Positions 1-63,524 of a stretch of DNA of 64,000 nt are shown piece by piece. This DNA comes from a virus (lineage: Duplodnaviria > Caudoviricetes): positions 59,216 to 123,215 of IMG/VR virus record IMGVR_UViG_3300020577_012633, one strand, 5' to 3'. The notes under the pieces are model-generated. The model made no database searches. It saw nothing but the letters and a program-made list of their open reading frames with translations, and was not told the DNA's origin. The first letter of the stretch is position 1, and each line of letters begins with the position of its first letter. The position numbers and the translations under genes are program-made.

Positions 1-110
1 GATTCATGGCTTCATAAACTCTAATCGTGCCTTTCGAAGAATGTATGAACCAATCTTGATTGAAAACCTGCAAAACGATACAATTATAATTAGGCGTTGA
101 TAAAAGATCA

Positions 111-428
111 TTACCAGAAAGCTGAGTAATCTGAGAAATCGGAATTTTCGTCAAATTTGTCTGCCAGTTCTGCAAGAACAACGGCGTGACATCCTTTGGG
201 TAAGCAAAAACAACCAAGTCTTTTTCCTTTTATTTCATGAAGATCTGCTATTAAATTTGGCTGGGCTAATATCCAAAAAGAATATAGTCTAATCGCTTCG
301 TCTCTTGACTCAACTATAAACTTAGCTTTGCTTTTAGGATCATGACTGTATGGATTTCCCCACTTCGATCCTCTGCCAACATCAATATCAAAAGGTTCTT
401 TATACCGATTTACAGCTATTGTTAGCAT
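111..428 (-). CDS. DUF4326-like protein
   Basis: GRGSKWGNPY and LGCFCLPKGCHA motifs; start moved to MLTIAV (428). Confidence 0.75.
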   Translation of the reverse strand: MLTIAVNRYKEPFDIDVGRGSKWGNPYSHDPKSKAKFIVESRDEAIRLYSFWILAQPNLIADLHEIKGKRLGCFCLPKGCHAVVLAELADKFDENSDFSDYSAFW

Positions 429-11476: not shown

Positions 11477-12040
11477 TTACTGGTTTCCGTACTTTTCTTT
11501 GAGACGAGCATATTCTTGTTTATCATGCTCTTCATTTAACAGTTTCATTCTTTCTTTTTCTTGCTGTTCTTCTTGTTTCTTTTTTTGCTCCTTTTCTAGT
11601 TTTTGTTTTTCCTCGTTTGCAAGCCTAATTGCTGTCGCATTTTTCTTTTTCTGGTTAACTATATTTAAGAGTTCTTCCCGATGTTCCCAGTCAGTCGGAG
11701 TATCTAGAGTTCCGTTTTCTCCGCTAATACAAAAATTTTCATCAGTGAAGCTATATTTTGAAATAATCAGGTGTGAATATTCGTATTCAGGATCATGTTC
11801 TTTGGTCCGAGACTTAGCGATGCTTTCTTCAAACTCGCTATAGTATTTGCATCTGTGAACTTCATCATAGAATTCTCTATCAAGTTTAACAATATGATTG
11901 GCGATATCTTCAAGAGAATTGAAAATTTCAGTTACCATATTGGCATCCTTGGAGTGCCGCCAATCGCACTCGCCTCTGAAATAACTTGCAAGTTCGCAGT
12001 TATTGATATGACTGATAACGATGACAGGAAAACTGTTCAT
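11477..12040 (-). CDS. Hypothetical protein (C-terminal coiled coil)
   Basis: 187-aa ORF. Confidence 0.55.
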   Translation of the reverse strand: MNSFPVIVISHINNCELASYFRGECDWRHSKDANMVTEIFNSLEDIANHIVKLDREFYDEVHRCKYYSEFEESIAKSRTKEHDPEYEYSHLIISKYSFTDENFCISGENGTLDTPTDWEHREELLNIVNQKKKNATAIRLANEEKQKLEKEQKKKQEEQQEKERMKLLNEEHDKQEYARLKEKYGNQ

Positions 12041-13206
12041 GATCTATTCTCCATATTTGATAAGTTCAAAAGTTGATATTTACGAAAAAGATTTCTCTTT
12101 TTAGAATCAGCAGGAATCGGTTCTGTGGCAATGGCAGTCACTTCGTAATCCTCACAATTATTGTTTATTGATGAAACAGTCGATACTACATTGTATGGAG
12201 GTTTATTATGACAAACATTACCGTTGGATCTTCCTTTGGGAAATGGAAAGTCATCTCTGTTGGGCATAGACCCGAAGGAAGCCTTTCTAGGGCCAAATAT
12301 TTTCTTTGTGAATGCCAATGTCCTGCTAAAACTAGAAGAATGGTTATAGGGCGTAGTCTTCGCGAGGGAACTAGCAAAAGTTGTGGATGCATTGGTCCAT
12401 CTCAAAATACTGGGAAAAATGAAATTAACAAAACGTATGGAAAATGGACGGTTCTTGATGAAGCTAAAAAACCTGTTCATATAACTGGAAGAGGTAAGTA
12501 TTTTTTGTGCGAATGTTCTTGTATTCATAAGACTAGAAGAATCATTTCTGGTCACGCACTCCGTAGCGGAGGATCTAATAATTGTGGCTGTAAATGGAGA
12601 TATTCGATTAGAAATGTAGACGCTCCATTTAATATGTTGCTTGGAAATTATATAAACAGCGCGAATAAAAGAAACAAGTCTTTTAACTTGTCTTTGGATG
12701 ACATTAAGCGTCTTTCGCAAGATATTTGTTTTTATTGCGGACAACAACCAATGGCAACTTTGAAGCCATTTGGCAAGCATAATTTTGTTTATAATGGTAT
12801 TGACAGGATAGACAATTCTCTTGGATATACCATTAAAAATTGTGTTTCTTGTTGCAAGAACTGCAATACCGCAAAACTTGACATGAACGTTGACCAGTTT
12901 AAGAATTGGATTACATCGGTCTACCTGAGACTTTGTAAGTGAATTCGAATTTCTTGGTCTATCAGGTTCTTGAAACTTGGCGACCTGAATGCCATAATAT
13001 TGGAGACGATCGTGAGCTTTCAAAAGCTCGCTTTCGTTCTTTACGCCAATAAGAACAAGATGAGGATGTTCTTGGTTCTAACCAGGAGCAAAAGCTCTGA
13101 TTGCCTCAATCACAGCGTGTGCGCTTTGAACAGCGATCTGCGACTGCGAGAGGTCTTCTCTAACGAGAACGTACATGTAAACAGTTTGTGATTGTACCTA
13201 CGTCAT
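12037..13206 (-). CDS. Pth2-like (peptidyl-tRNA hydrolase II-like) gene with two in-frame TAG and an 807-bp in-frame insertion; recoded gene or pseudogene
   Basis: Manual translation MT*VQSQTVYMYVLVREDLSQSQIAVQSAHAVIEA..G*NQEHPHLVLIGV..FQEPDR[insert]DYEVTAIATEP; AGGAG RBS and promoter upstream. Confidence 0.7.
12208..12942 (+). CDS. HNH-type homing endonuclease inserted antisense in the Pth2-like gene
   Basis: Two CECxC..SCGC repeats, CFYCG, GIDRIDN..GY..NCVSCCKNCN..K. Confidence 0.85.
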   Translation: MTNITVGSSFGKWKVISVGHRPEGSLSRAKYFLCECQCPAKTRRMVIGRSLREGTSKSCGCIGPSQNTGKNEINKTYGKWTVLDEAKKPVHITGRGKYFLCECSCIHKTRRIISGHALRSGGSNNCGCKWRYSIRNVDAPFNMLLGNYINSANKRNKSFNLSLDDIKRLSQDICFYCGQQPMATLKPFGKHNFVYNGIDRIDNSLGYTIKNCVSCCKNCNTAKLDMNVDQFKNWITSVYLRLCK

Positions 13207-13227
13207 ATTTTGTCTCCTAAGTAAGTC

Positions 13228-13251
13228 TATCGTCATTTTTCCCAAAGTCAA
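13228..13251 (-). promoter_or_regulatory. Putative promoter (TTGACT ... GACGATA)
   Basis: -35-like hexamer plus the recurrent GNCGATA motif upstream of the RBS. Confidence 0.55.
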
Positions 13252-13308
13252 GCCTTGTTGGAATTTTTTGTGAAAATTATTAGTGTTAGTAATCTATTTT
13301 TACAAGAT

Positions 13309-14226
13309 TTACGAAAGAATCCAGTTGCAAATTCTTTCCAGCAAACTTTTCTTTTTTACTTCCGGTTTTGGTGACACTGAAGGATTCATTGAGAATTTGC
13401 CTTCATTTAGTCCATCTCTTATCATTTTAAGACCAATTAGGTGGGATTGAACTCTCAAAGATATTGTTTTGCCAATATCTGCATATTCGTAATATTCTGA
13501 ACCAAAAAAATCATCGCCATAATCTGACAAAAATTGCACCCAATTAAATTCGGTTTCACAAGCTCCGATTGCCTCGTGACGCAAATCTTCAAAAACGTTT
13601 TTATTTTTAATGACTTCGTAACGATAATCAGTCTTATTCAAAGACTCCCACTTCCCGCTCGTATAAAGATCTCTGAGATAATCTTTAGAAACGGAAATTA
13701 TTTTATTTTTCTCGTCAGCAGAAAGATCTTTCCAAGCTTTATAACCATCTTCAGTATAAAGAACAGCCATTTCAGGATATTTATTTTTCAATACATCTTC
13801 AATATGTCCATCAAGATAAAGATCGCTAAACAAAGAATCGCCTTGATCTTCTCCAAAAGTATGAGTTTCAATGTATTGTTTTACAAAATCAATAGCAACT
13901 TCTTGATTCCAGGTTTTGCCTCTTTCTCCACAAGAACTTGCTCGGCATTTCCCGTCAAAATAGTCCAAATCACAACCGCCTAAAAAGTTTATACTAATAG
14001 GAGAACCCCAACTATATACAGCTTCTCCCAGATCACCAGAAACAAAAAGAGTAGCAGAATTCTGGTCAATATAGTAAATAACAGCAAAGTTCCAATCGCC
14101 GGGCTTTTTCCATTTAATTTTAATTATGTTACCATCTTCAGAATAAGTAAAAGTAGGAACATGGTCTTTAAACCAGTTTTCTCGTATATTTTTATCTTCT
14201 CTTTTGTAAATCTCATACTTGCTCAC
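13309..14226 (-). CDS. Hypothetical phage protein
   Basis: 305-aa ORF. Confidence 0.6.
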   Translation of the reverse strand: MSKYEIYKREDKNIRENWFKDHVPTFTYSEDGNIIKIKWKKPGDWNFAVIYYIDQNSATLFVSGDLGEAVYSWGSPISINFLGGCDLDYFDGKCRASSCGERGKTWNQEVAIDFVKQYIETHTFGEDQGDSLFSDLYLDGHIEDVLKNKYPEMAVLYTEDGYKAWKDLSADEKNKIISVSKDYLRDLYTSGKWESLNKTDYRYEVIKNKNVFEDLRHEAIGACETEFNWVQFLSDYGDDFFGSEYYEYADIGKTISLRVQSHLIGLKMIRDGLNEGKFSMNPSVSPKPEVKKKSLLERICNWILS

Positions 14227-15158: not shown

Positions 15159-15233
15159 TGCCCTCGGCGGGACTCGAACCCACAACTCTCAGAATTTTAG
15201 AGATTCCGGTTCTGCCAATTGAACTACGAGAGC
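15159..15233 (-). tRNA. Amber suppressor tRNA (CTA)
   Basis: Full cloverleaf; anticodon arm GGAAT-CTCTAAA-ATTCT. Confidence 0.88.
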
Positions 15234-16617: not shown

Positions 16618-17850
16618 CTAAATGGTAATTTTATCTTTTGCTACCAGCATTGATTTTACGCAATCTCTTCGAGATCCTGAACTAACATAAACTCTCAACA
16701 CATTGCAAGATTTTGCAACAGTATGTATAAGATCATTATACCCTGAAACTTTTACAATTTCATTGTTATTCTTTATTTCTACATCAGGAGGAATTTGATC
16801 AATATGAGTTATTGCAACCTGATGTGAAACTGAAATTTTACTTGTATATGTTTGCTGCAAATCATTTTCTATGGTTTTTGACAAAAGATCCACATCCAGA
16901 CATCCAAAACGCAATTTTCCCTGAAATTCATTTGGAACATTAGTGCTATCTTTATAGGAAAGATTAGGATCTTCTGTTGGAAATGGACCAAGACCATGAC
17001 GAGTCATGTAAGCTCTAGTTACATATACCGTATCAAGATTTTTGATTTCAAATTCTTTGCAAAGACTAAGTACATTTTTTAGACCTGTTTTACTTCTTGT
17101 TACATGCGGGAAAAATTCATGATCTTCATCTAACAGAAGACCTTGAGCGCCTTCAAAAACAACAGATTCTGCTTGAGAGTCTTCAAGAACCTCTTTATCG
17201 TCAACTATTGTGCTATTTTCAATAAAAAGCTCAATATCACTAATGAAATTCTCTAAAAGATTATCTGAATCAAATATTTCAAAAAACTTTTTATCTGGTT
17301 TTAGGTTAAGCTGTTCAATACGATTTCGGAAATACCCGTCTCTTAGATGTTCGTATTGTCTTTTTCTTTCTATACGATCTAAATATGTTGCAATAGTTGT
17401 ATGATATGTATCGTTTATATTTTCTATTCCACCAAGAAATCTGGTGACGGTTTCATTAATACCCATTCCACAAGAACCATGTTTATTATTTCTTTCTCTC
17501 TCAACCTGTTGATTTATCAACATATCATATGGAAGAGTCATGCAAGCAAGATCAGAAACAAACAATTTAGGTTTTTTTATGCCTATTCCATTGAGTATTT
17601 TGAATTCTTTTTTCCAGAGTATTGGATTGATGATAAAGTAATGACTTAGAAAAGTAGCAGCCCCAGCTAAGGAGCCGCTACCAAAGTGACTGAAAACATG
17701 GCGCAAACCTTCAGGAGTAACAACAGTATGTCCTGCTTGAGCGCCACCGTTATATCTGACAACCAGCGTATCATTGGAGCTAAAATAATCGGTCATAAGG
17801 CCTTTGCCTTCATCACCAAAGTTCGCTCCAATGATCGCTGTAGCCTTCAT
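16618..17850 (-). CDS. purA: Adenylosuccinate synthetase
   Basis: GANFGDEGKG, GGAQAGHT, FEGAQG, TRHG.GPFPTE. Confidence 0.88.
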   Translation of the reverse strand: MKATAIIGANFGDEGKGLMTDYFSSNDTLVVRYNGGAQAGHTVVTPEGLRHVFSHFGSGSLAGAATFLSHYFIINPILWKKEFKILNGIGIKKPKLFVSDLACMTLPYDMLINQQVERERNNKHGSCGMGINETVTRFLGGIENINDTYHTTIATYLDRIERKRQYEHLRDGYFRNRIEQLNLKPDKKFFEIFDSDNLLENFISDIELFIENSTIVDDKEVLEDSQAESVVFEGAQGLLLDEDHEFFPHVTRSKTGLKNVLSLCKEFEIKNLDTVYVTRAYMTRHGLGPFPTEDPNLSYKDSTNVPNEFQGKLRFGCLDVDLLSKTIENDLQQTYTSKISVSHQVAITHIDQIPPDVEIKNNNEIVKVSGYNDLIHTVAKSCNVLRVYVSSGSRRDCVKSMLVAKDKITI

Positions 17851-17865
17851 AACGATTCCTTACGA

Positions 17866-22234: not shown

Positions 22235-23323
22235 TTATATTCCCAATTTATTCGTCTCTCCAGAATTTCCAAAGAACCAATGTTCATTTGCTGTAACGTG
22301 TCCTTTTCTAACAAATTTTGCTATAGACCTTGAAAAATCTTTATAATGAAAACTATCGGCCAACCGAACAACGTATCCCTCACAGTCCTCACCATTTATT
22401 ACTGGTTTATAAAGTTCTTTAATCGTTTTTTCATTCCATATTCCTCTATAAATAATCGGTACTATTGGAATGCCAAGAAGTTGAAACCATTCGTTAGTTG
22501 TATCCCAATCAAGACAAATTAGATTGTTCCAAGCTGAAATCCCATAGCAATAACTTTCCAAATTCTTATATGGAATGGAATGTTTTGCATAAAGATTTTC
22601 TACAACAAATCTCATGTTCTCAGGAATATCATGACAAATATTCCCGTGAAAATTCTTTATCCAACTTTTTGACCAGTGTTTCTTATCTGCTAAAGAACGA
22701 GCATGAATATAGTCATTATACATTGTTGTATTTTCACCATCCATCTTGATGGTTACTACAACCTCTTTGCCATTAAATATGTCTATATTCTTTATAATGC
22801 GATCATCGTCAGTAGCTCCAGGAGACCAAGGCAAATGCCAAGTTCTTGGATACTTTACATAACGACTAAATAAATTAAGTACATTGCCTTCGTTCAATAC
22901 TTTTTGAACAGAAATATCATCAAAAAGCTCGCCTCTGAGTCTTGTCCCATTGGGCATAATAGGATTAGCCCATTTATCATACACTTGATCATCGTAAAGA
23001 TGTTCTGGTATAATCTTATCTTTTTCTAGGATTCCGCAAGCTGCTCTAATCTCTTCAACACATAAAATTGTCATTTCAGCTTTGATATGACATTCAGGGC
23101 AAAGGCTAGAGCCGTTGTTGATTAGATATCCACCGAAAGTTTCCGGGTCTATCCATAGTCGTCTTTCTAAGATATGATGAGCATCGAGATTCGTCTTAGT
23201 TGATGTCTTAAGACAAATAACGCATTTGTGATCATCACGAGCAAAAACCTTCTCTCTAAATTCGTTTCTAGAAAGAATTTTCCGTGACCGATTTACATAG
23301 TTGTTTGAATTTGACTTCATCAA
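22235..23323 (-). CDS. HNH domain fused to ATP-dependent RNA ligase (start uncertain)
   Basis: CVIC..AHHI..LCPECH; KYPRTWHLPWS, KMDGEN, EGYVVR, AKFVR. Confidence 0.85.
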   Translation of the reverse strand: MMKSNSNNYVNRSRKILSRNEFREKVFARDDHKCVICLKTSTKTNLDAHHILERRLWIDPETFGGYLINNGSSLCPECHIKAEMTILCVEEIRAACGILEKDKIIPEHLYDDQVYDKWANPIMPNGTRLRGELFDDISVQKVLNEGNVLNLFSRYVKYPRTWHLPWSPGATDDDRIIKNIDIFNGKEVVVTIKMDGENTTMYNDYIHARSLADKKHWSKSWIKNFHGNICHDIPENMRFVVENLYAKHSIPYKNLESYCYGISAWNNLICLDWDTTNEWFQLLGIPIVPIIYRGIWNEKTIKELYKPVINGEDCEGYVVRLADSFHYKDFSRSIAKFVRKGHVTANEHWFFGNSGETNKLGI

Positions 23324-23999
23324 AATTTCTTTTCATTAGGTTAATGTCCTTATGCGTCCATTGAACATTGCCCTCGATATATCCTTTACTTGAGTCTATG
23401 CGATCAAGAGAAGCAGTTGCGCTACCGTGACTGGTTTTTGGAAAGGAAATCTCCAAACCCGAAAGTGCGCATTTCCCTTTTTGGTCAAGATAGAGTTTCC
23501 AACCATATTGAATAGAAATGGAAAAGTCTAATTTTCGTTTTGATGCCTGAATTCTATACAAGGACCATCTACTTGCATTAATGTCTCCACAACCTTTGAA
23601 TAGCGGATTGCTTTCACCGAATCTGCGAATTTCATTTCTGGCACAGCCGCAAGACTTGACTTCGTTTCGAAGAAGAACCCCAGGTAATCTTTCTACATTT
23701 TTCTTTCCGCAAGAACAATCACACATTGCGATCCATCGTCTTCCCCATTTACCCTCCTTGACTCGCATATCAATGACGGATAATTTACCAAAAACTTTAC
23801 CGATAAGTTCTCCGTTGTATTCAGGAACATCTCGATTTTTTCTATCTATTGCTGAACAATTTTTGCGTTTTCTTAATCTATTTAGGGTGGTTTTACTAAT
23901 ATCAAATTTTGAACATATTTCTTCTATAAACTCCCCTGAACGATAAGCTTCTACTATCGCCTTTTCCTGCGATTCCGTAAGTCTCTTTCCTTTAACCAT
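23268..23999 (-). CDS. HTH + HNH homing endonuclease
   Basis: CDCSCG..SCGC, CALSG, ASLDRIDSSKGYIEGNVQW..N.MK. Confidence 0.88.
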   Translation of the reverse strand: MVKGKRLTESQEKAIVEAYRSGEFIEEICSKFDISKTTLNRLRKRKNCSAIDRKNRDVPEYNGELIGKVFGKLSVIDMRVKEGKWGRRWIAMCDCSCGKKNVERLPGVLLRNEVKSCGCARNEIRRFGESNPLFKGCGDINASRWSLYRIQASKRKLDFSISIQYGWKLYLDQKGKCALSGLEISFPKTSHGSATASLDRIDSSKGYIEGNVQWTHKDINLMKRNFDEVKFKQLCKSVTENSF

Positions 24000-34012: not shown

Positions 34013-35251
34013 TTATGACAATTTCCTAACTATTTTAACGTTTTTCTTTCCCTTTTTAATTATCAAAAATTTATCATAGAAAAACTGATTAATTTTTACG
34101 ATTGGTTCATTTACTTTTGCGCCATTTATTGTTATACCGCCAGATTCGATTATTCGAACTGCATCTGATTTGCTAGTCGCTAATCCGCTTTGAATAAGGA
34201 CTGACACAACCGGAACAGTTTCGCTATCAATGTTTGCAGATCCAAGAACCTTACATGCCAACTCAAATTCTTCTTGGGTTAAATTATCCCAATCTTCGTA
34301 GTACATTGATCTAGAAATATTCCTACATTTGTAGGCTGAATCTTTACCGTGAACAAGTTCTGTCATTTCTATTGCTAGCGCATTTTGCAAAATTCTAGCA
34401 GATTTGTCTTTATTATGTAGTTCTATATTTGTATCAAGCTGTTCATCTGAAGACAGACTAAACATTTTAAATACATTTTCAATTTCATCATCTTCAATAT
34501 TCATCCAAAACTGGAAAAAATCCCATACTGAAGTTTTGGAAGAATCTAGCCAAACTGCTCCTTCAGAAGACTTGCCAAATTTTGTTCCATCTTTTTTAGT
34601 TAGAAGAGGGAAAGTTAATCCGAAAACTTCATTCTTTTTCTTTCTACAAAGCTGTATTCCAGAGCAAATGTTTCCCCATTGGTCATTGCCTCCAATTTGA
34701 AGTATGCATCTAAATTTTTCAAATAGCATATCAAAATCTGAAGCCTGAAATAAAGTATAACTCATTTCGCCAAAGGTAAGTCCACCATTTGACAATCTCG
34801 CATGAATAGCTTCATTTTCTAGCATGTTATTAACAGAAAATCTACAAGCAACATCTCTTATAAATTCTAGTATGCTCACATTTTCGTAAAATGAACCATT
34901 AAAAACAATCTGAAAAGGCGCTCCAACAATAAGAGAACACTGTACTGCAATCTTCTGAGAATTTATATGAATTTCATGTTCAGTAAGTTGAGGCCTATCA
35001 GTTCTCCGACCAGTTGGATCTCCAATCATTGCAGTAAAATTACCAACTAAAATTATTGGCATATGGCCATGCTTAGAAAACCTTTTAAGGGTTATCAATG
35101 CAAGAAGATTGCCTACAGTGAGGCTATCTGAAGTTGGATCAAATCCACAATAGACAGGTATAGTTCTATTATCAATGATTTGAGAGACTTTATCAAAGTC
35201 TGAACATTGAGCAATAAGATCTCTAGACTGTAGTTCTTTAAATAAACTCAT
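34013..35251 (-). CDS. tyrS: Tyrosyl-tRNA synthetase
   Basis: YCGFDPT, GDPTG, QIGGNDQWGNI, KFGKS, C-terminal S4 domain. Confidence 0.95.
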   Translation of the reverse strand: MSLFKELQSRDLIAQCSDFDKVSQIIDNRTIPVYCGFDPTSDSLTVGNLLALITLKRFSKHGHMPIILVGNFTAMIGDPTGRRTDRPQLTEHEIHINSQKIAVQCSLIVGAPFQIVFNGSFYENVSILEFIRDVACRFSVNNMLENEAIHARLSNGGLTFGEMSYTLFQASDFDMLFEKFRCILQIGGNDQWGNICSGIQLCRKKKNEVFGLTFPLLTKKDGTKFGKSSEGAVWLDSSKTSVWDFFQFWMNIEDDEIENVFKMFSLSSDEQLDTNIELHNKDKSARILQNALAIEMTELVHGKDSAYKCRNISRSMYYEDWDNLTQEEFELACKVLGSANIDSETVPVVSVLIQSGLATSKSDAVRIIESGGITINGAKVNEPIVKINQFFYDKFLIIKKGKKNVKIVRKLS

Positions 35252-35542
35252 TTTACCTGCCATTCAACTTCAACTGTTTCTGTATCAATTTTGTACTTGC
35301 CAGAATTTGATCCATACAATTCTGTATCAAGTCCTCTCCAACTTAATGCAATGTTGTGCTTTATTGCAGTCTTTACAAGATGATCTTCTGGAACTTCTTC
35401 AATAGGAACAATGTCCCAAAATGATATATTATTTTTTGAAGAATAATTTATAAGTTCGCAAAGAATACTTCTTTTTGCAGTAAGTGTCCCAAAAATTCCT
35501 TGAATTTTTACTCTTCCTGATTTAGGAGGAATTTCAGCCATT

Positions 35543-38021: not shown

Positions 38022-38104
38022 AACTAGATTCCTCCTAGTTATGAATTACTGTATTATAATGGAGCAGTCCTCTAAAAAATGGAGGAAAGCTCATGTATTT
38101 TTAC

Positions 38105-38452
38105 TGGAGCCGAGGGGAATCGAACCCCTGTCTTTAGCGAATCTTTCAAGCGTTACTACAAGTTTGTTTGATGATTTATCTTATCTCAATGTCTATCATC
38201 AACGAACATACATTGAGAGCATTTTTCTCTTATCTCAAACTGACTTAATGAAAAAGGTTTGGGTCAGTTCCAGCAGATGTTTTTCGCTAAACTCATTATC
38301 TGCGTCAAAAATTTAGCGGGTAGCCTTAATTAGGCTGCCATTGCGAGAGTGCTGTTGCCAGCTAGTTTTTTGCATACTTTTTACGAGTCCAGCATGCTCC
38401 TCGACTTGCAACGTTCTTGTCTAATCCCTAAATCGAATACCAGTACGGCCCC
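38105..38452 (-). ncRNA. ssrA: tmRNA, predicted tag (A)GNSTLAMAA*
   Basis: GGGGCCG/CGGCTCCA acceptor with G3.U70, T arm, internal ORF GGC AAC AGC ACT CTC GCA ATG GCA GCC TAA. Confidence 0.92.
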
Positions 38453-40612: not shown

Positions 40613-40740
40613 TGGACGAGAAGGAATTGAACCTTCAATCTTTGATCGGCGGACCTGCAAAGGTTGTCTAGTTTTCACCAGACTGCGAAGTGAGAGCGGC
40701 AGGTTCCTAATTCAATGTTCTACCTTTGAACTAATCGTCC
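40613..40740 (-). ncRNA. tRNA-like RNA with the anticodon arm replaced by a large structured domain
   Basis: GGACGA/TCGTCC acceptor, D arm GTTC-AAAGGTA-GAAC, T arm GAAGG-TTCAATT-CCTTC. Confidence 0.7.
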
Positions 40741-52749: not shown

Positions 52750-53500
52750 TTACTTCAATATGATATCAAGATTTCCCTTTATAACATCTTTGATATCATA
52801 TGTTTTCTTGCCTGTCAAATGATCAGAAACATAGCCCTTATAGAAACAATAAGTTCTTCTAGCTCCGCCTCTTCCTGTATTGCTGAGAATGTTTTTACGC
52901 TTTTCAGCATAATCCTTATTTTGTTCAGCAAACTTCATTTCTTGAATACGTCCGCACAGAAGCTCATAAGCATGAGCTTTATTCTGCTGAGGAGAACGAT
53001 GAACCTGAGACTTAACAAAGATTCCTGTTGGAATATGTTTCATTCTACATGCACTCTTGCATGTATTAACTCCTTGACCACCTGGTCCTGAAGCATTTTG
53101 AAACATAATCTCAATGTCTTCGTCTCTAATAATCGCTCCTTTGAAAGCAAATATTGGCAAGATTCCAACTGTTACAGTTGAAGTATGACGACGACCGCTT
53201 CTTTCGGAAGGAGGACATCTTTGAACAACATGCTTGCCTGATTCATTTTCAAAAGCAGATAATACATTTTTACCGCTTATTTCAAGAGTAGAAGAACCGT
53301 AATCAACATCAACAATCGAAATGGTTAGGTTCTTCTTTGTTGCGTATCTAACATATATTTCGGAGAGTTCGTGAACAAAGTTTTTAGCATCTTCTCCACC
53401 CTCTCCTGCTCTTATTTCAATAAGAATAGAAGAAGGGTCAAAGAGACTCCTGTGCCTTATGCTGAAGGCCATCGTTCCAGCGATTTCTGTTACTATTCAT
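52750..53500 (-). CDS. Class I peptide release factor homolog (lacks domain 1) with a predicted +1 programmed frameshift
   Basis: EIRAGEGG, GRRHTS, GPGGQ; AGGAG-TCT-CTT-TGA-C at 53451-53437 in frame with ATG 53500. Confidence 0.85.
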
Positions 53501-63451: not shown

Positions 63452-63524
63452 CGGTATGGGACGGTTTTGACCCGCCATCCTTCCACTATTCAAGTGGTCG
63501 CTCTACATTTGGAGCTACCATACC
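63452..63524 (-). tRNA. tRNA-Phe(GAA), atypical D and T loops
   Basis: CCAC-TTGAATA-GTGG; T loop GTCAAAA. Confidence 0.65.

What the first reader, a model, noticed from the sequence alone, without database searches (positions are those of the whole stretch)
13023..13251. Hidden Pth2-like gene with two in-frame amber codons near an amber suppressor tRNA
Seen: promoter, AGGAG RBS, then ATG ACG TAG (codon 3, 13198-13200) and a second TAG at codon 43 (13078-13080). The motifs are otherwise intact (YVLVREDL, AVQSAHA, HLVL, FQEPD, TAIA) and there is no frameshift. Both stops fall outside the conserved blocks and both are TAG. Inference: expression needs UAG read-through, via the suppressor at 15159 or low RF1. 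With the UGA-gated RF this would form a two-arm termination-sensing rescue system alongside tmRNA. A pseudogene cannot be excluded.
Basis: partly seen in the sequence, partly recalled or inferred. Interest (0 to 1): 0.85.

Follow-up and report, generated by a model that had tools for sequence, protein, structure and literature searches.

The report
Suppressor-tRNA-gated phage Pth2-like gene
A giant phage that otherwise uses the normal genetic code keeps two UAG stop codons inside a small tRNA-hydrolase-like gene and carries its own UAG-reading tRNA nearby; dozens of distant phages pair an early stop with a matching tRNA, so the protein is probably made only when that tRNA overrides the stop.

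Summary
On the minus strand an AGGAG site and ATG (13206) open a PTH2-fold gene with TAG at codon 3 (13200-13198) and codon 43 (13080-13078).

It is not a pseudogene. Four independent relatives keep both TAGs, although 58-84% of synonymous sites differ and dN/dS is 0.07-0.23.

Of 76 distinct family loci, 61 have an in-frame stop shortly after the start or inside the domain. In all 31 loci that hold both a gate and a suppressor tRNA, the stop type matches the anticodon: 27 TAG/CUA, 3 TGA/UCA, 1 TAA/UUA. All 51 rule-scored TAG gates are followed by a purine.

The 123-kb genome fragment uses TAG as a true terminator. I therefore read this as a gene-specific lock opened by the phage's tRNA(CUA) at 15159-15233, not as genome-wide recoding.

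The tie to the release factor and tmRNA was not tested. The hydrolase's substrate and the amino acid inserted at UAG are unknown.

This scan has noted the same module on many other genomes. I found no paper that describes it. Two cultured phages, CBB and RsoM2USA, carry it and could be used to test it.

The parts
13224..13251 (-). Promoter-like site TTGACT-16-TAGACT upstream of the gene
   Evidence: Consensus scan, 9 of 12 matches. A pattern match only, not evidence of function.
13214..13218 (-). Shine-Dalgarno AGGAG, 7 nt before the ATG
   Evidence: Read directly from the sequence. L001 has AGGAG at the same place.
12958..13206 (-). N-terminal part of the PTH2-like gene (codons 1-83, ATG to ..FQEPDR)
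   Evidence: Pfam PTH2 matches residues 10-80. It is 65-88% identical to uninterrupted metagenomic homologs. dN/dS is 0.07-0.14 in the two pairs where dS was computable.
13198..13200 (-). Gate 1: in-frame TAG at codon 3, followed by G
   Evidence: TAG lies 2-13 residues before the Y.Y..VR.DL motif (codon 3-11 of the gene) in 51 distinct loci by a strict rule, plus 3 by eye.
13078..13080 (-). Gate 2: in-frame TAG at codon 43, followed by A, in the loop before EHPHLV
   Evidence: Conserved in L001/2/6, L004, L005, L008 and L012. In the AlphaFold model of the L004 homolog it falls in loop 40-48.
12151..12957 (-). In-frame insert of 269 codons, the antisense of the HNH gene. It has no stop in the host frame. 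Boundaries are good to about +/-6 nt.
   Evidence: Uninterrupted homologs read EPD-RNNE-TAIA. The frame is open in three diverged copies. No Rfam intron was found.
12208..12942 (+). HNH homing-endonuclease gene (244 aa) with its own GGAGG ribosome-binding site, codon-aligned antisense to the host frame
   Evidence: PHROG endonuclease VII / HNH endonuclease families, E=1.8e-15 to 1e-12. It has no TTA, CTA or TCA codon; P is about 5e-5 given genome codon usage.
12037..12150 (-). C-terminal part of the PTH2-like gene (DYEVTAIATEPIPADSKK...), ending at TGA 12039-12037
   Evidence: Aligns to the C-terminus of uninterrupted homologs. In the full-length model it completes the Pth2 fold: Z 10.4, rmsd 2.3 A over 91 residues, model range 8..378.
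15159..15233 (-). Suppressor tRNA with anticodon CUA, same strand, 1.95 kb upstream
   Evidence: ARAGORN; Rfam tRNA 51.7 bits. Across 12 family-linked suppressor tRNAs, 17 of 20 stem pairs show compensatory changes and the CUCUAAA loop is invariant.

Best explanation
This is a gene-specific translational lock. The phage's PTH2-fold (peptidyl-tRNA-hydrolase-like) gene can be translated in full only if UAG at codon 3 and codon 43 is decoded as an amino acid. The decoder is the phage's own tRNA(CUA), encoded 1.95 kb upstream on the same strand.

Without an active suppressor, RF1 would release a dipeptide at codon 3. With it, the ribosome reads on through both UAGs, and probably also straight through the stop-free antisense HNH insert, to give a 389-residue protein whose two ends form the Pth2 fold.

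Synthesis of the hydrolase-like protein is therefore tied to the presence, charging and competitive strength of the suppressor tRNA.

Shown by comparison:
- the lock is conserved;
- it is under purifying selection;
- the stop type matches the neighbouring tRNA's anticodon;
- the stop sits in a suppression-friendly context.

Inferred:
- that read-through actually occurs;
- which amino acid goes in. Discriminator bases differ among close relatives and the gates lie in unconserved segments, so the residue probably does not matter;
- what the protein does. My best guess is that it clears or recycles peptidyl- or aminoacyl-tRNA species that arise when a suppressor competes with termination, possibly acting on the suppressor tRNA itself.
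For: 1. Both TAGs are invariant in five lineages, while pS is 0.58-0.84 and dN/dS is 0.07-0.23.
2. 61 of 76 distinct family loci carry an in-frame stop just after the start or inside the domain. 54 are TAG, 5 TGA and 2 TAA.
3. The M/L/V codon before the domain is mostly GTC, GTT, CTT or CTC, so it is not an alternative start.
4. A suppressor tRNA lies in 34 of 76 loci, often about 20-55 nt upstream of the ATG on the same strand.
5. In all 31 loci with both a gate and a suppressor, stop type equals anticodon: 27 TAG/CUA, 3 TGA/UCA, 1 TAA/UUA, with no mismatch. The random-pairing probability is about 8e-6, not corrected for phylogeny.
6. The base after the gate TAG is a purine in 51 of 51 cases, against a 56% baseline (p=2e-13). 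From my own knowledge of the classical E. coli context studies, this is the context that favours amber suppression. True TAG terminators in this genome show 13 purines in 22.
7. TAG is a real terminator here. 22 of 154 long ORFs end in TAG, and the topoisomerase II and kinase-like genes end at TAG directly followed by an SD and the ATG of the next gene. DNA ligase, TyrRS and RNA ligase match their full-length profiles uninterrupted under code 11.
8. The tRNAs are under structural selection.
9. The fold is Pth2: the L004 homolog model has pLDDT 88.6 and its top 12 listed Foldseek hits are Pth2-fold structures.
10. Cultured phages carry the lock. CBB has M-A-Q-TAG and a tRNA(CUA) 3.7 kb away. 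RsoM2USA has M-L-TAG, and its paper reports one CUA tRNA (PMC8504454).
Against: - Nothing is experimental. Expression, charging and read-through are all unobserved.
- I could not obtain RNA data or encoding contigs.
- TAG ends about 14% of this phage's long ORFs. A strong suppressor would extend those proteins, and backup stops after TAG are no closer than after TGA.
- Three loci have a suppressor but no gate (L058, L063, L079), and 15 loci have no gate.
- Many gate-bearing loci show no tRNA, though most of those are short contigs.
- The canonical Pth2 catalytic Lys (GK motif) aligns to Gln, so hydrolase activity is not assured.
- Only 24% of the genome is in hand. Recoded late genes elsewhere cannot be excluded.
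Confidence: 0.82

Rival explanations
1. The whole phage uses genetic code 15 (TAG = Gln), at least in part of its genome. The two TAGs are then ordinary sense codons, not a lock.
For: The phage encodes a tRNA(CUA), as recoded phages do (bioRxiv 10.1101/2021.08.26.457843, listed). Only about 24% of the genome is available. Database homologs were called with Q at these positions.
Against: - In the 123-kb fragment no other gene is split by TAG with homology on both sides.
- 22 of 154 long ORFs end at TAG, two of them directly followed by an SD and the ATG of the next gene.
- If TAG were synonymous with CAA/CAG it would drift. Instead it is fixed at one place across relatives down to about 35% identity, and it switches to TGA or TAA exactly where the neighbouring tRNA reads those codons.
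Confidence: 0.06
2. The early stop ends a two-codon mini-ORF (M-T-stop). It senses RF1 activity or peptidyl-tRNA drop-off, and the hydrolase is made by reinitiation or by near-cognate read-through when RF1 is limiting. No dedicated suppressor is needed.
For: The stop sits at codon 3 in 26 of 51 gates, and the next codon is often GTN or ATN, which is near-cognate to a start. From my own knowledge, two-codon minigenes are classic sources of peptidyl-tRNA (lambda bar). The phage encodes an RF1-type factor.
Against: - TAG at codon 43 lies inside the domain and cannot be bypassed by reinitiation.
- A generic terminator would vary freely among TAA, TAG and TGA. Instead the type follows the adjacent anticodon in 31 of 31 loci.
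- The residues between the gate and the domain are conserved as protein, for example the Tyr before the motif.
- The +4 purine favours suppression.
Confidence: 0.07
3. The gene is a decaying pseudogene, hit by two nonsense mutations and an endonuclease insertion. Alternatively the TAGs are sequencing errors.
For: Two premature stops plus an 807-nt insertion would normally mean a dead gene.
Against: - The same two TAGs occur in four other independently assembled relatives.
- dN/dS is 0.07-0.23 with synonymous sites near saturation, and the part downstream of the insert is also constrained.
- The insert avoids every codon that would stop the host frame in three diverged copies, P about 1e-4 each.
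Confidence: 0.02

Closest known systems
Stop-codon-recoded phages with phage-encoded suppressor tRNAs (TAG read as Gln, 'code 15'; crAss-like and Lak phages; bioRxiv 10.1101/2021.08.26.457843; PMC9523058)
   Same: A phage infecting a standard-code host carries a tRNA(CUA), and phage genes contain in-frame UAG that must be decoded. Expression is thereby tied to the phage's own translation parts.
   Different: Here one small gene is affected, not blocks of late genes. TAG stays a terminator for about 14% of long ORFs. The stop sits at a conserved place just after the start. The same design exists for TGA and TAA with matching tRNAs.
prfB (RF2) autoregulation through an early in-frame UGA
   Same: An early in-frame stop makes synthesis of a translation-termination-related factor depend on how efficiently that stop is recognised.
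   Different: prfB escapes by a +1 frameshift and senses its own product. Here the frame continues in phase, and the escape is by a dedicated, co-inherited tRNA. Feedback by the product is only a hypothesis.
Archaeal/eukaryotic peptidyl-tRNA hydrolase 2 (Pfam PF01981; PDB 2zv3, 1q7s Bit1, 1wn2, 3erj, 1xty)
   Same: Same alpha/beta fold (TM 0.65-0.74). Shared R.DL, Q..HA, D and TA.A..P signature positions.
   Different: Only a remote sequence relative (E=5e-4 to 2zv3). The GK lysine aligns to Gln. The helical segment between helix 1 and strand 2 is shorter. The family is phage-borne. Its activity is untested.
Orphan CUA suppressor tRNAs of cultured jumbo phages (XacN1, PMC5852040; RsoM2USA, PMC8504454)
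   Same: Standard-code jumbo phages that carry CUA tRNAs. RsoM2USA also has the gated PTH2-like gene.
   Different: Those papers report no target gene. XacN1's authors read 18 amber stops through in silico and found nothing. XacN1's own homolog is an ungated fusion.
ShiLan 'hidden HNH' insertion in actinophage DNA methylase (PMC11855218)
   Same: An HNH endonuclease gene sits inside a host gene, leaves the host frame free of stops, and has no intron or intein signature.
   Different: ShiLan's HNH lies out of frame on the same strand. Here it lies on the opposite strand, codon for codon, with its own ribosome-binding site.

Membership tests
Pth2 peptidyl-tRNA hydrolase (PF01981) | Sequence match to the family profile above the curated cut-off | tested here: met
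   24.5 bits against a cut-off of 23, E=3.3e-5, residues 10-80 to profile positions 2-81 of 115. The rest of the profile lies beyond the insert. Uninterrupted homologs carry PF01981.
Pth2 peptidyl-tRNA hydrolase (PF01981) | Pth2 alpha/beta fold | tested here: met
   For the L004 homolog model (pLDDT 88.6), the top 12 listed Foldseek PDB hits are Pth2-fold structures, E down to 6.8e-7 and TM 0.65-0.74. The window's full-length model aligns over 8..378 with Z 10.4, but its C-terminal part has a pLDDT of only 51-58.
Pth2 peptidyl-tRNA hydrolase (PF01981) | Catalytic Lys of the GK motif and catalytic Asp (residues recalled from the S. solfataricus and human Pth2 literature; my own knowledge) | tested here: inconclusive
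   In the profile alignment to 2zv3, the K of 'GK' aligns to Gln23. Asp82 of EPD is nearly invariant, but its equivalence to the catalytic Asp rests on motif comparison by eye.
Pth2 peptidyl-tRNA hydrolase (PF01981) | Hydrolysis of peptidyl-tRNA | not testable with these tools
   Needs an enzyme assay or complementation of a pth(ts) strain.
Genome-wide TAG-recoded phage (code 15) | Phage-encoded suppressor tRNA(CUA) | tested here: met
Genome-wide TAG-recoded phage (code 15) | Many genes, typically late ones, with in-frame TAG; TAG not used as a terminator | tested here: not met
   In the 123-kb fragment only this gene is split by TAG. 22 of 154 long ORFs end at TAG, two of them directly before the next gene's SD and ATG. 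The other 76% of the genome is unseen. Searches for terminase and portal in the 494-kb relative found nothing.
prfB-type autoregulatory stop | Bypass of the in-frame stop by a +1 frameshift at a slippery CUU-UGA site | tested here: not met
   The reading frame continues in phase across both TAGs. There is no slippery motif: the context is ACG-TAG-GTA.
Pseudogene | Relaxed selection and lineage-specific, randomly placed stops | tested here: not met
   dN/dS is 0.07-0.23, and the stops are fixed in the same columns in five lineages and across the family.
Group I/II intron or intein (for the 807-nt insert) | Ribozyme core, or Hint splicing blocks with a nucleophile at the junctions | tested here: inconclusive
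   No Rfam intron hit up to E=5. Only about 15 and 57 nt of the insert lie outside the HNH ORF. The junction residues (R/L at the N side) are not intein-like. Splicing itself could not be tested, because no RNA data were available.

The most novel reading that the evidence does not exclude
The tRNA and the hydrolase-like gene form a self-contained feedback circuit. The suppressor tRNA licenses synthesis of an enzyme that acts back on the products of suppression: peptidyl-tRNA from aborted termination or read-through, or the suppressor's own aminoacyl or peptidyl ester. This sets the level of stop-codon read-through in the infected cell. In this phage it would work alongside a frameshift-gated RF1-type factor and a phage tmRNA as a virus-encoded termination-control system.
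Probability: 0.2. Interest if true: 0.9.

Novelty: new variant of a known kind. Interest (0 to 1): 0.8.

Why it matters
Cultured jumbo phages are known to carry amber-suppressor tRNAs for which no target gene has been found. The XacN1 authors looked and found none (PMC5852040). The RsoM2USA paper reported only that UAG is abundant (PMC8504454).

A conserved, matched stop-and-tRNA pair gives those tRNAs a concrete client gene. It would also be a natural case of a single gene switched by a dedicated suppressor tRNA, a design otherwise known to me from engineered genetic-code-expansion systems.

It can be tested directly in lab-grown phages (CBB, RsoM2USA). It also matters for annotation. GenBank truncates the gene in CBB and omits it in RsoM2USA.

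The antisense HNH insert that the host frame reads through adds a second unusual feature in the same gene.

Tried and rejected
The DNA behind homologs P0002-P0014 could not be fetched, so I used the search for related loci instead.
I have no RNA or read evidence on expression, splicing or variants, and read laying was not used.
- Megablast of the region against cultured phages found nothing.
- A mixed alignment (A1) was too diverse for the locus search.
- An Rfam scan of 11900-13400 at E up to 5 gave no intron, only a sub-threshold glutamine-riboswitch hit.
- I tried to learn whether late genes of the complete 494-kb relative (G001) contain in-frame TAG. Terminase_6N, Terminase_6C and Portal_T4 profiles found no match, so that question stays open.
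- A 7-nt anticodon-loop pattern search in CBB was uninformative on its own. The tRNA was then found with Rfam and ARAGORN.
- MAFFT misplaced the short C-terminal rows of uninterrupted homologs (A4, A6, A7). The full-length model therefore rests on a shallow alignment for the C-terminal part and the insert.
- tRNA identity: no tRNA of this genome is more than 72% identical to the suppressor. The inserted amino acid is undetermined, and 'Q' in my translations is a placeholder.
- Backup stops after TAG-terminated genes are no closer than after TGA. There is no sign of adaptation to leaky TAG.
- Rejected: an alternative start at the M/L/V position, a pseudogene, and an intein.

Full report
**What is in the sequence**

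The minus strand reads AGGAG (13218-13214), then ATG ACG TAG (TAG at 13200-13198), and has a second in-frame TAG at 13080-13078. A promoter-like TTGACT-16-TAGACT lies at 13251-13224; this is a consensus match only. The frame runs without any other stop or frameshift to TGA at 12039-12037. Residues 10-80 match Pfam PTH2 just above its cut-off (E=3.3e-5). A tRNA with anticodon CUA lies at 15159-15233 on the same strand.

The gene is interrupted. After ..FQEPDR (about 12958) comes an 807-nt segment that is the exact codon-for-codon antisense of a plus-strand HNH endonuclease gene. That gene spans 12208-12942, has its own GGAGG site, and matches PHROG endonuclease and HNH endonuclease families with a best E of 1.8e-15. 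The PTH2 sequence resumes at DYEVTAIATEP.. (12150). Uninterrupted relatives read EPD-RNNE-TAIA.

**The genome**

The window is part of a 123-kb IMG/VR virus record that CheckV rates 24% complete. Relatives with the same locus sit on contigs of 464-506 kb, and one of them is rated 98% complete at 494 kb with 72 tRNA hits. This is a giant phage.

It is not TAG-recoded in the part I can see:
- 22 of 154 long ORFs end at TAG.
- The topoisomerase II gene and a kinase-like gene end at TAG directly followed by an SD and the ATG of the next gene.
- DNA ligase, TyrRS and RNA ligase match their profiles end to end under code 11.
- A scan for TAG-split ORFs found only the PTH2-like gene with homology on both sides.

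**Not a pseudogene**

Close homologs in the protein database (65-88% identity) show Q at both positions. Locus searches gave DNA for 80 further family members.

In L001/L002/L006, L004, L005 and L008, both TAGs are in the same alignment columns as in the window. Pairwise synonymous differences are 0.58-0.84, and dN/dS is 0.07-0.23 where it could be computed. The part downstream of the insert is also constrained.

**A family-wide lock**

I compared 76 distinct sequences (32-78% identical to the query).
- 51 have ATG, then 1-9 sense codons, then TAG, then 2-13 residues before the invariant Y.Y..VR.DL motif. Three more do so by eye. In 26 of the 51 the TAG is at codon 3.
- The codon at the M/L/V position before the motif is mostly GTC, GTT, CTT or CTC, so it is not a hidden start.
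- Five loci have TGA instead: three near the start and two inside the domain. Two loci have TAA.

ARAGORN finds a suppressor tRNA in 34 of the 76 loci. It is often about 20-55 nt upstream of the ATG on the same strand.

In every one of the 31 loci with both a gate and a suppressor, the stop type equals the anticodon:
- 27 TAG with CUA;
- 3 TGA with UCA (L047, L064, L072);
- 1 TAA with UUA (L049).

Random pairing would give this about 8e-6 of the time. That figure is not corrected for shared ancestry.

Three loci have a suppressor but no gate, and 15 have no gate. Most gate-bearing loci without a tRNA are short contigs.

**Context of the stop**

The base after the gate TAG is a purine in 51 of 51 cases, against a baseline of 56% (p=2e-13). 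True TAG terminators of this genome show 13 purines in 22. A 3' purine is the classical context that favours amber suppression; that statement rests on my own knowledge of the E. coli context literature. This fits a codon that is selected to be read, not to terminate.

**The tRNA**

Twelve family-linked suppressor tRNAs fold as cloverleaves. 17 of 20 stem pairs show compensatory changes, and the CUCUAAA anticodon loop is invariant.

The window's tRNA has G1-C72, A73 and a short variable arm. It is at most 72% identical to any other tRNA of the genome. Discriminator bases differ among close relatives: A in the window, G in L001, U in L008.

The inserted residue is therefore unknown and probably not conserved. 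That fits gates placed in an unstructured N-terminal tail and in a loop (residues 1-8 and 40-48 of the model).

**The protein**

An AlphaFold model of the uninterrupted L004 homolog (49-row alignment, pLDDT 88.6) finds Pth2-fold structures as its top 12 listed PDB matches: 2zv3, 1q7s, 1wn2, 3erj, 1xty and 1rlk, with TM 0.65-0.74.

Sequence similarity to solved Pth2 is remote (E=5e-4). The lysine of the GK motif aligns to Gln. I therefore call the gene PTH2-like, and its enzymatic activity is not assured.

**The insert**

Three diverged copies (window, L001/L006, L008) keep the host frame open for 379-399 codons. Their HNH genes contain no TTA, CTA or TCA codon, with P of about 5e-5 to 1.5e-4 each given genome codon usage. 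No intron model matches, too little sequence lies outside the HNH ORF for a ribozyme core, and the junctions are not intein-like.

In a full-length model, residues 8-82 and 355-378 together superpose on Pth2 (Z 10.4, rmsd 2.3 A, 91 residues) with the insert looped out. The insert and the C-terminal part are of low confidence (pLDDT 28-58 for residues 300-389).

The most economical reading is translation straight through the insert. The nearest published case is the ShiLan hidden-HNH insertion (PMC11855218), where the HNH gene is on the same strand but out of frame.

The window's C-terminal part is nearly identical to that of L008 (pS 0.29), while the N-terminal part is saturated (pS 0.84). That looks like co-conversion during homing.

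**Cultured phages and the literature**

- Pectobacterium phage CBB has M-A-Q-TAG before the domain. Its GenBank CDS starts downstream of the gate, and a tRNA(CUA) lies 3.7 kb away.
- Ralstonia phage RsoM2USA has M-L-TAG and no annotated gene there. Its paper reports one CUA tRNA without a defined target.
- The authors of XacN1 searched for targets of its CUA tRNAs and found none. Its homolog is an ungated fusion.
- RaK2's homolog is ungated.
- Four full-text searches found no paper that links a suppressor tRNA to a Pth2-like gene (the ShiLan search is).

**Relation to earlier notes of this scan**

I reached the conservation, adjacency and covariation results before I looked. The look-up then showed that the scan has recorded the same module on many other genomes. 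Searches showed notes on the antisense HNH insert and on a frameshift-gated RF1-type gene in this genome. These notes are unchecked AI notes. I re-derived what I use here, and I took from them only the pointer to the ShiLan paper.

**Verdict**

Read-through by the phage's own tRNA(CUA) is the best-supported explanation, with a confidence of about 0.8. What the protein does remains open, and so does any link to the release factor (52750-53472) and the tmRNA (38102-38452).

Noticed in passing
window 12151-12957 (HNH gene 12208-12942, + strand): An HNH endonuclease gene lies codon for codon antisense inside the PTH2-like gene. Three diverged copies avoid every TTA, CTA and TCA codon, so the host frame stays open. 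There is no intron or intein signature.
   Followed up: yes
window 12037-12150 versus L008 6990-7137: The C-terminal part of the gene is almost identical to that of L008 (pS 0.29, pN 0.06), while the N-terminal part is saturated (pS 0.84). This mosaic looks like co-conversion of the flank during HNH homing.
   Followed up: partly
window 52750-53472 (-): A 240-aa RF-1-domain ORF with GGQ, and with PPS where RF1 has P-x-T. It is an RF1-type factor encoded by a phage that also carries an amber suppressor. Another report of this scan describes a +1 frameshift gate upstream of it.
   Followed up: partly
window 38102-38452 (-): A phage-encoded tmRNA (Rfam RF00023, 125.8 bits, full length).
   Followed up: no
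window 34013-35263 (-): A full-length tyrosyl-tRNA synthetase (PHROG 9270, E=1e-118). The 123-kb fragment has no tRNA-Tyr. The suppressor has A73 but a short variable arm, so this enzyme is a candidate for charging it. This is untested.
   Followed up: no
window 16618-17859 (-): An adenylosuccinate-synthetase-like gene matches the PHROG family named '2-aminooxy adenylosuccinate synthetase' (E=1.9e-65). It may be PurZ-like, which would hint at modified adenine in the DNA.
   Followed up: no
window 40613-40740 and 63452-63524 (-): Rfam finds two tRNA matches that ARAGORN does not report. One is 128 nt long, so it may be a tRNA with an insertion or a tRNA-like RNA.
   Followed up: no
L085 (KU574722.1 286003-286341) and L118 (MG752970.1 68880-69206): GenBank annotation is affected by the gate. 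The CBB gene is annotated only from an internal start, and the RsoM2USA gene is not annotated at all.
   Followed up: yes
L084 (AP018399.1 243756-244595), L041, L048: A subfamily (XacN1 ORF364 and two metagenomic loci) has the PTH2-like domain fused behind an N-terminal domain and has no gate, although XacN1 carries two CUA tRNAs.
   Followed up: partly
window 22235-23332 (-): An RNA ligase gene (PHROG 24030, E=3e-125) also matches HNH endonuclease families at its N-terminus (residues 16-90). This may be another endonuclease-associated arrangement.
   Followed up: no
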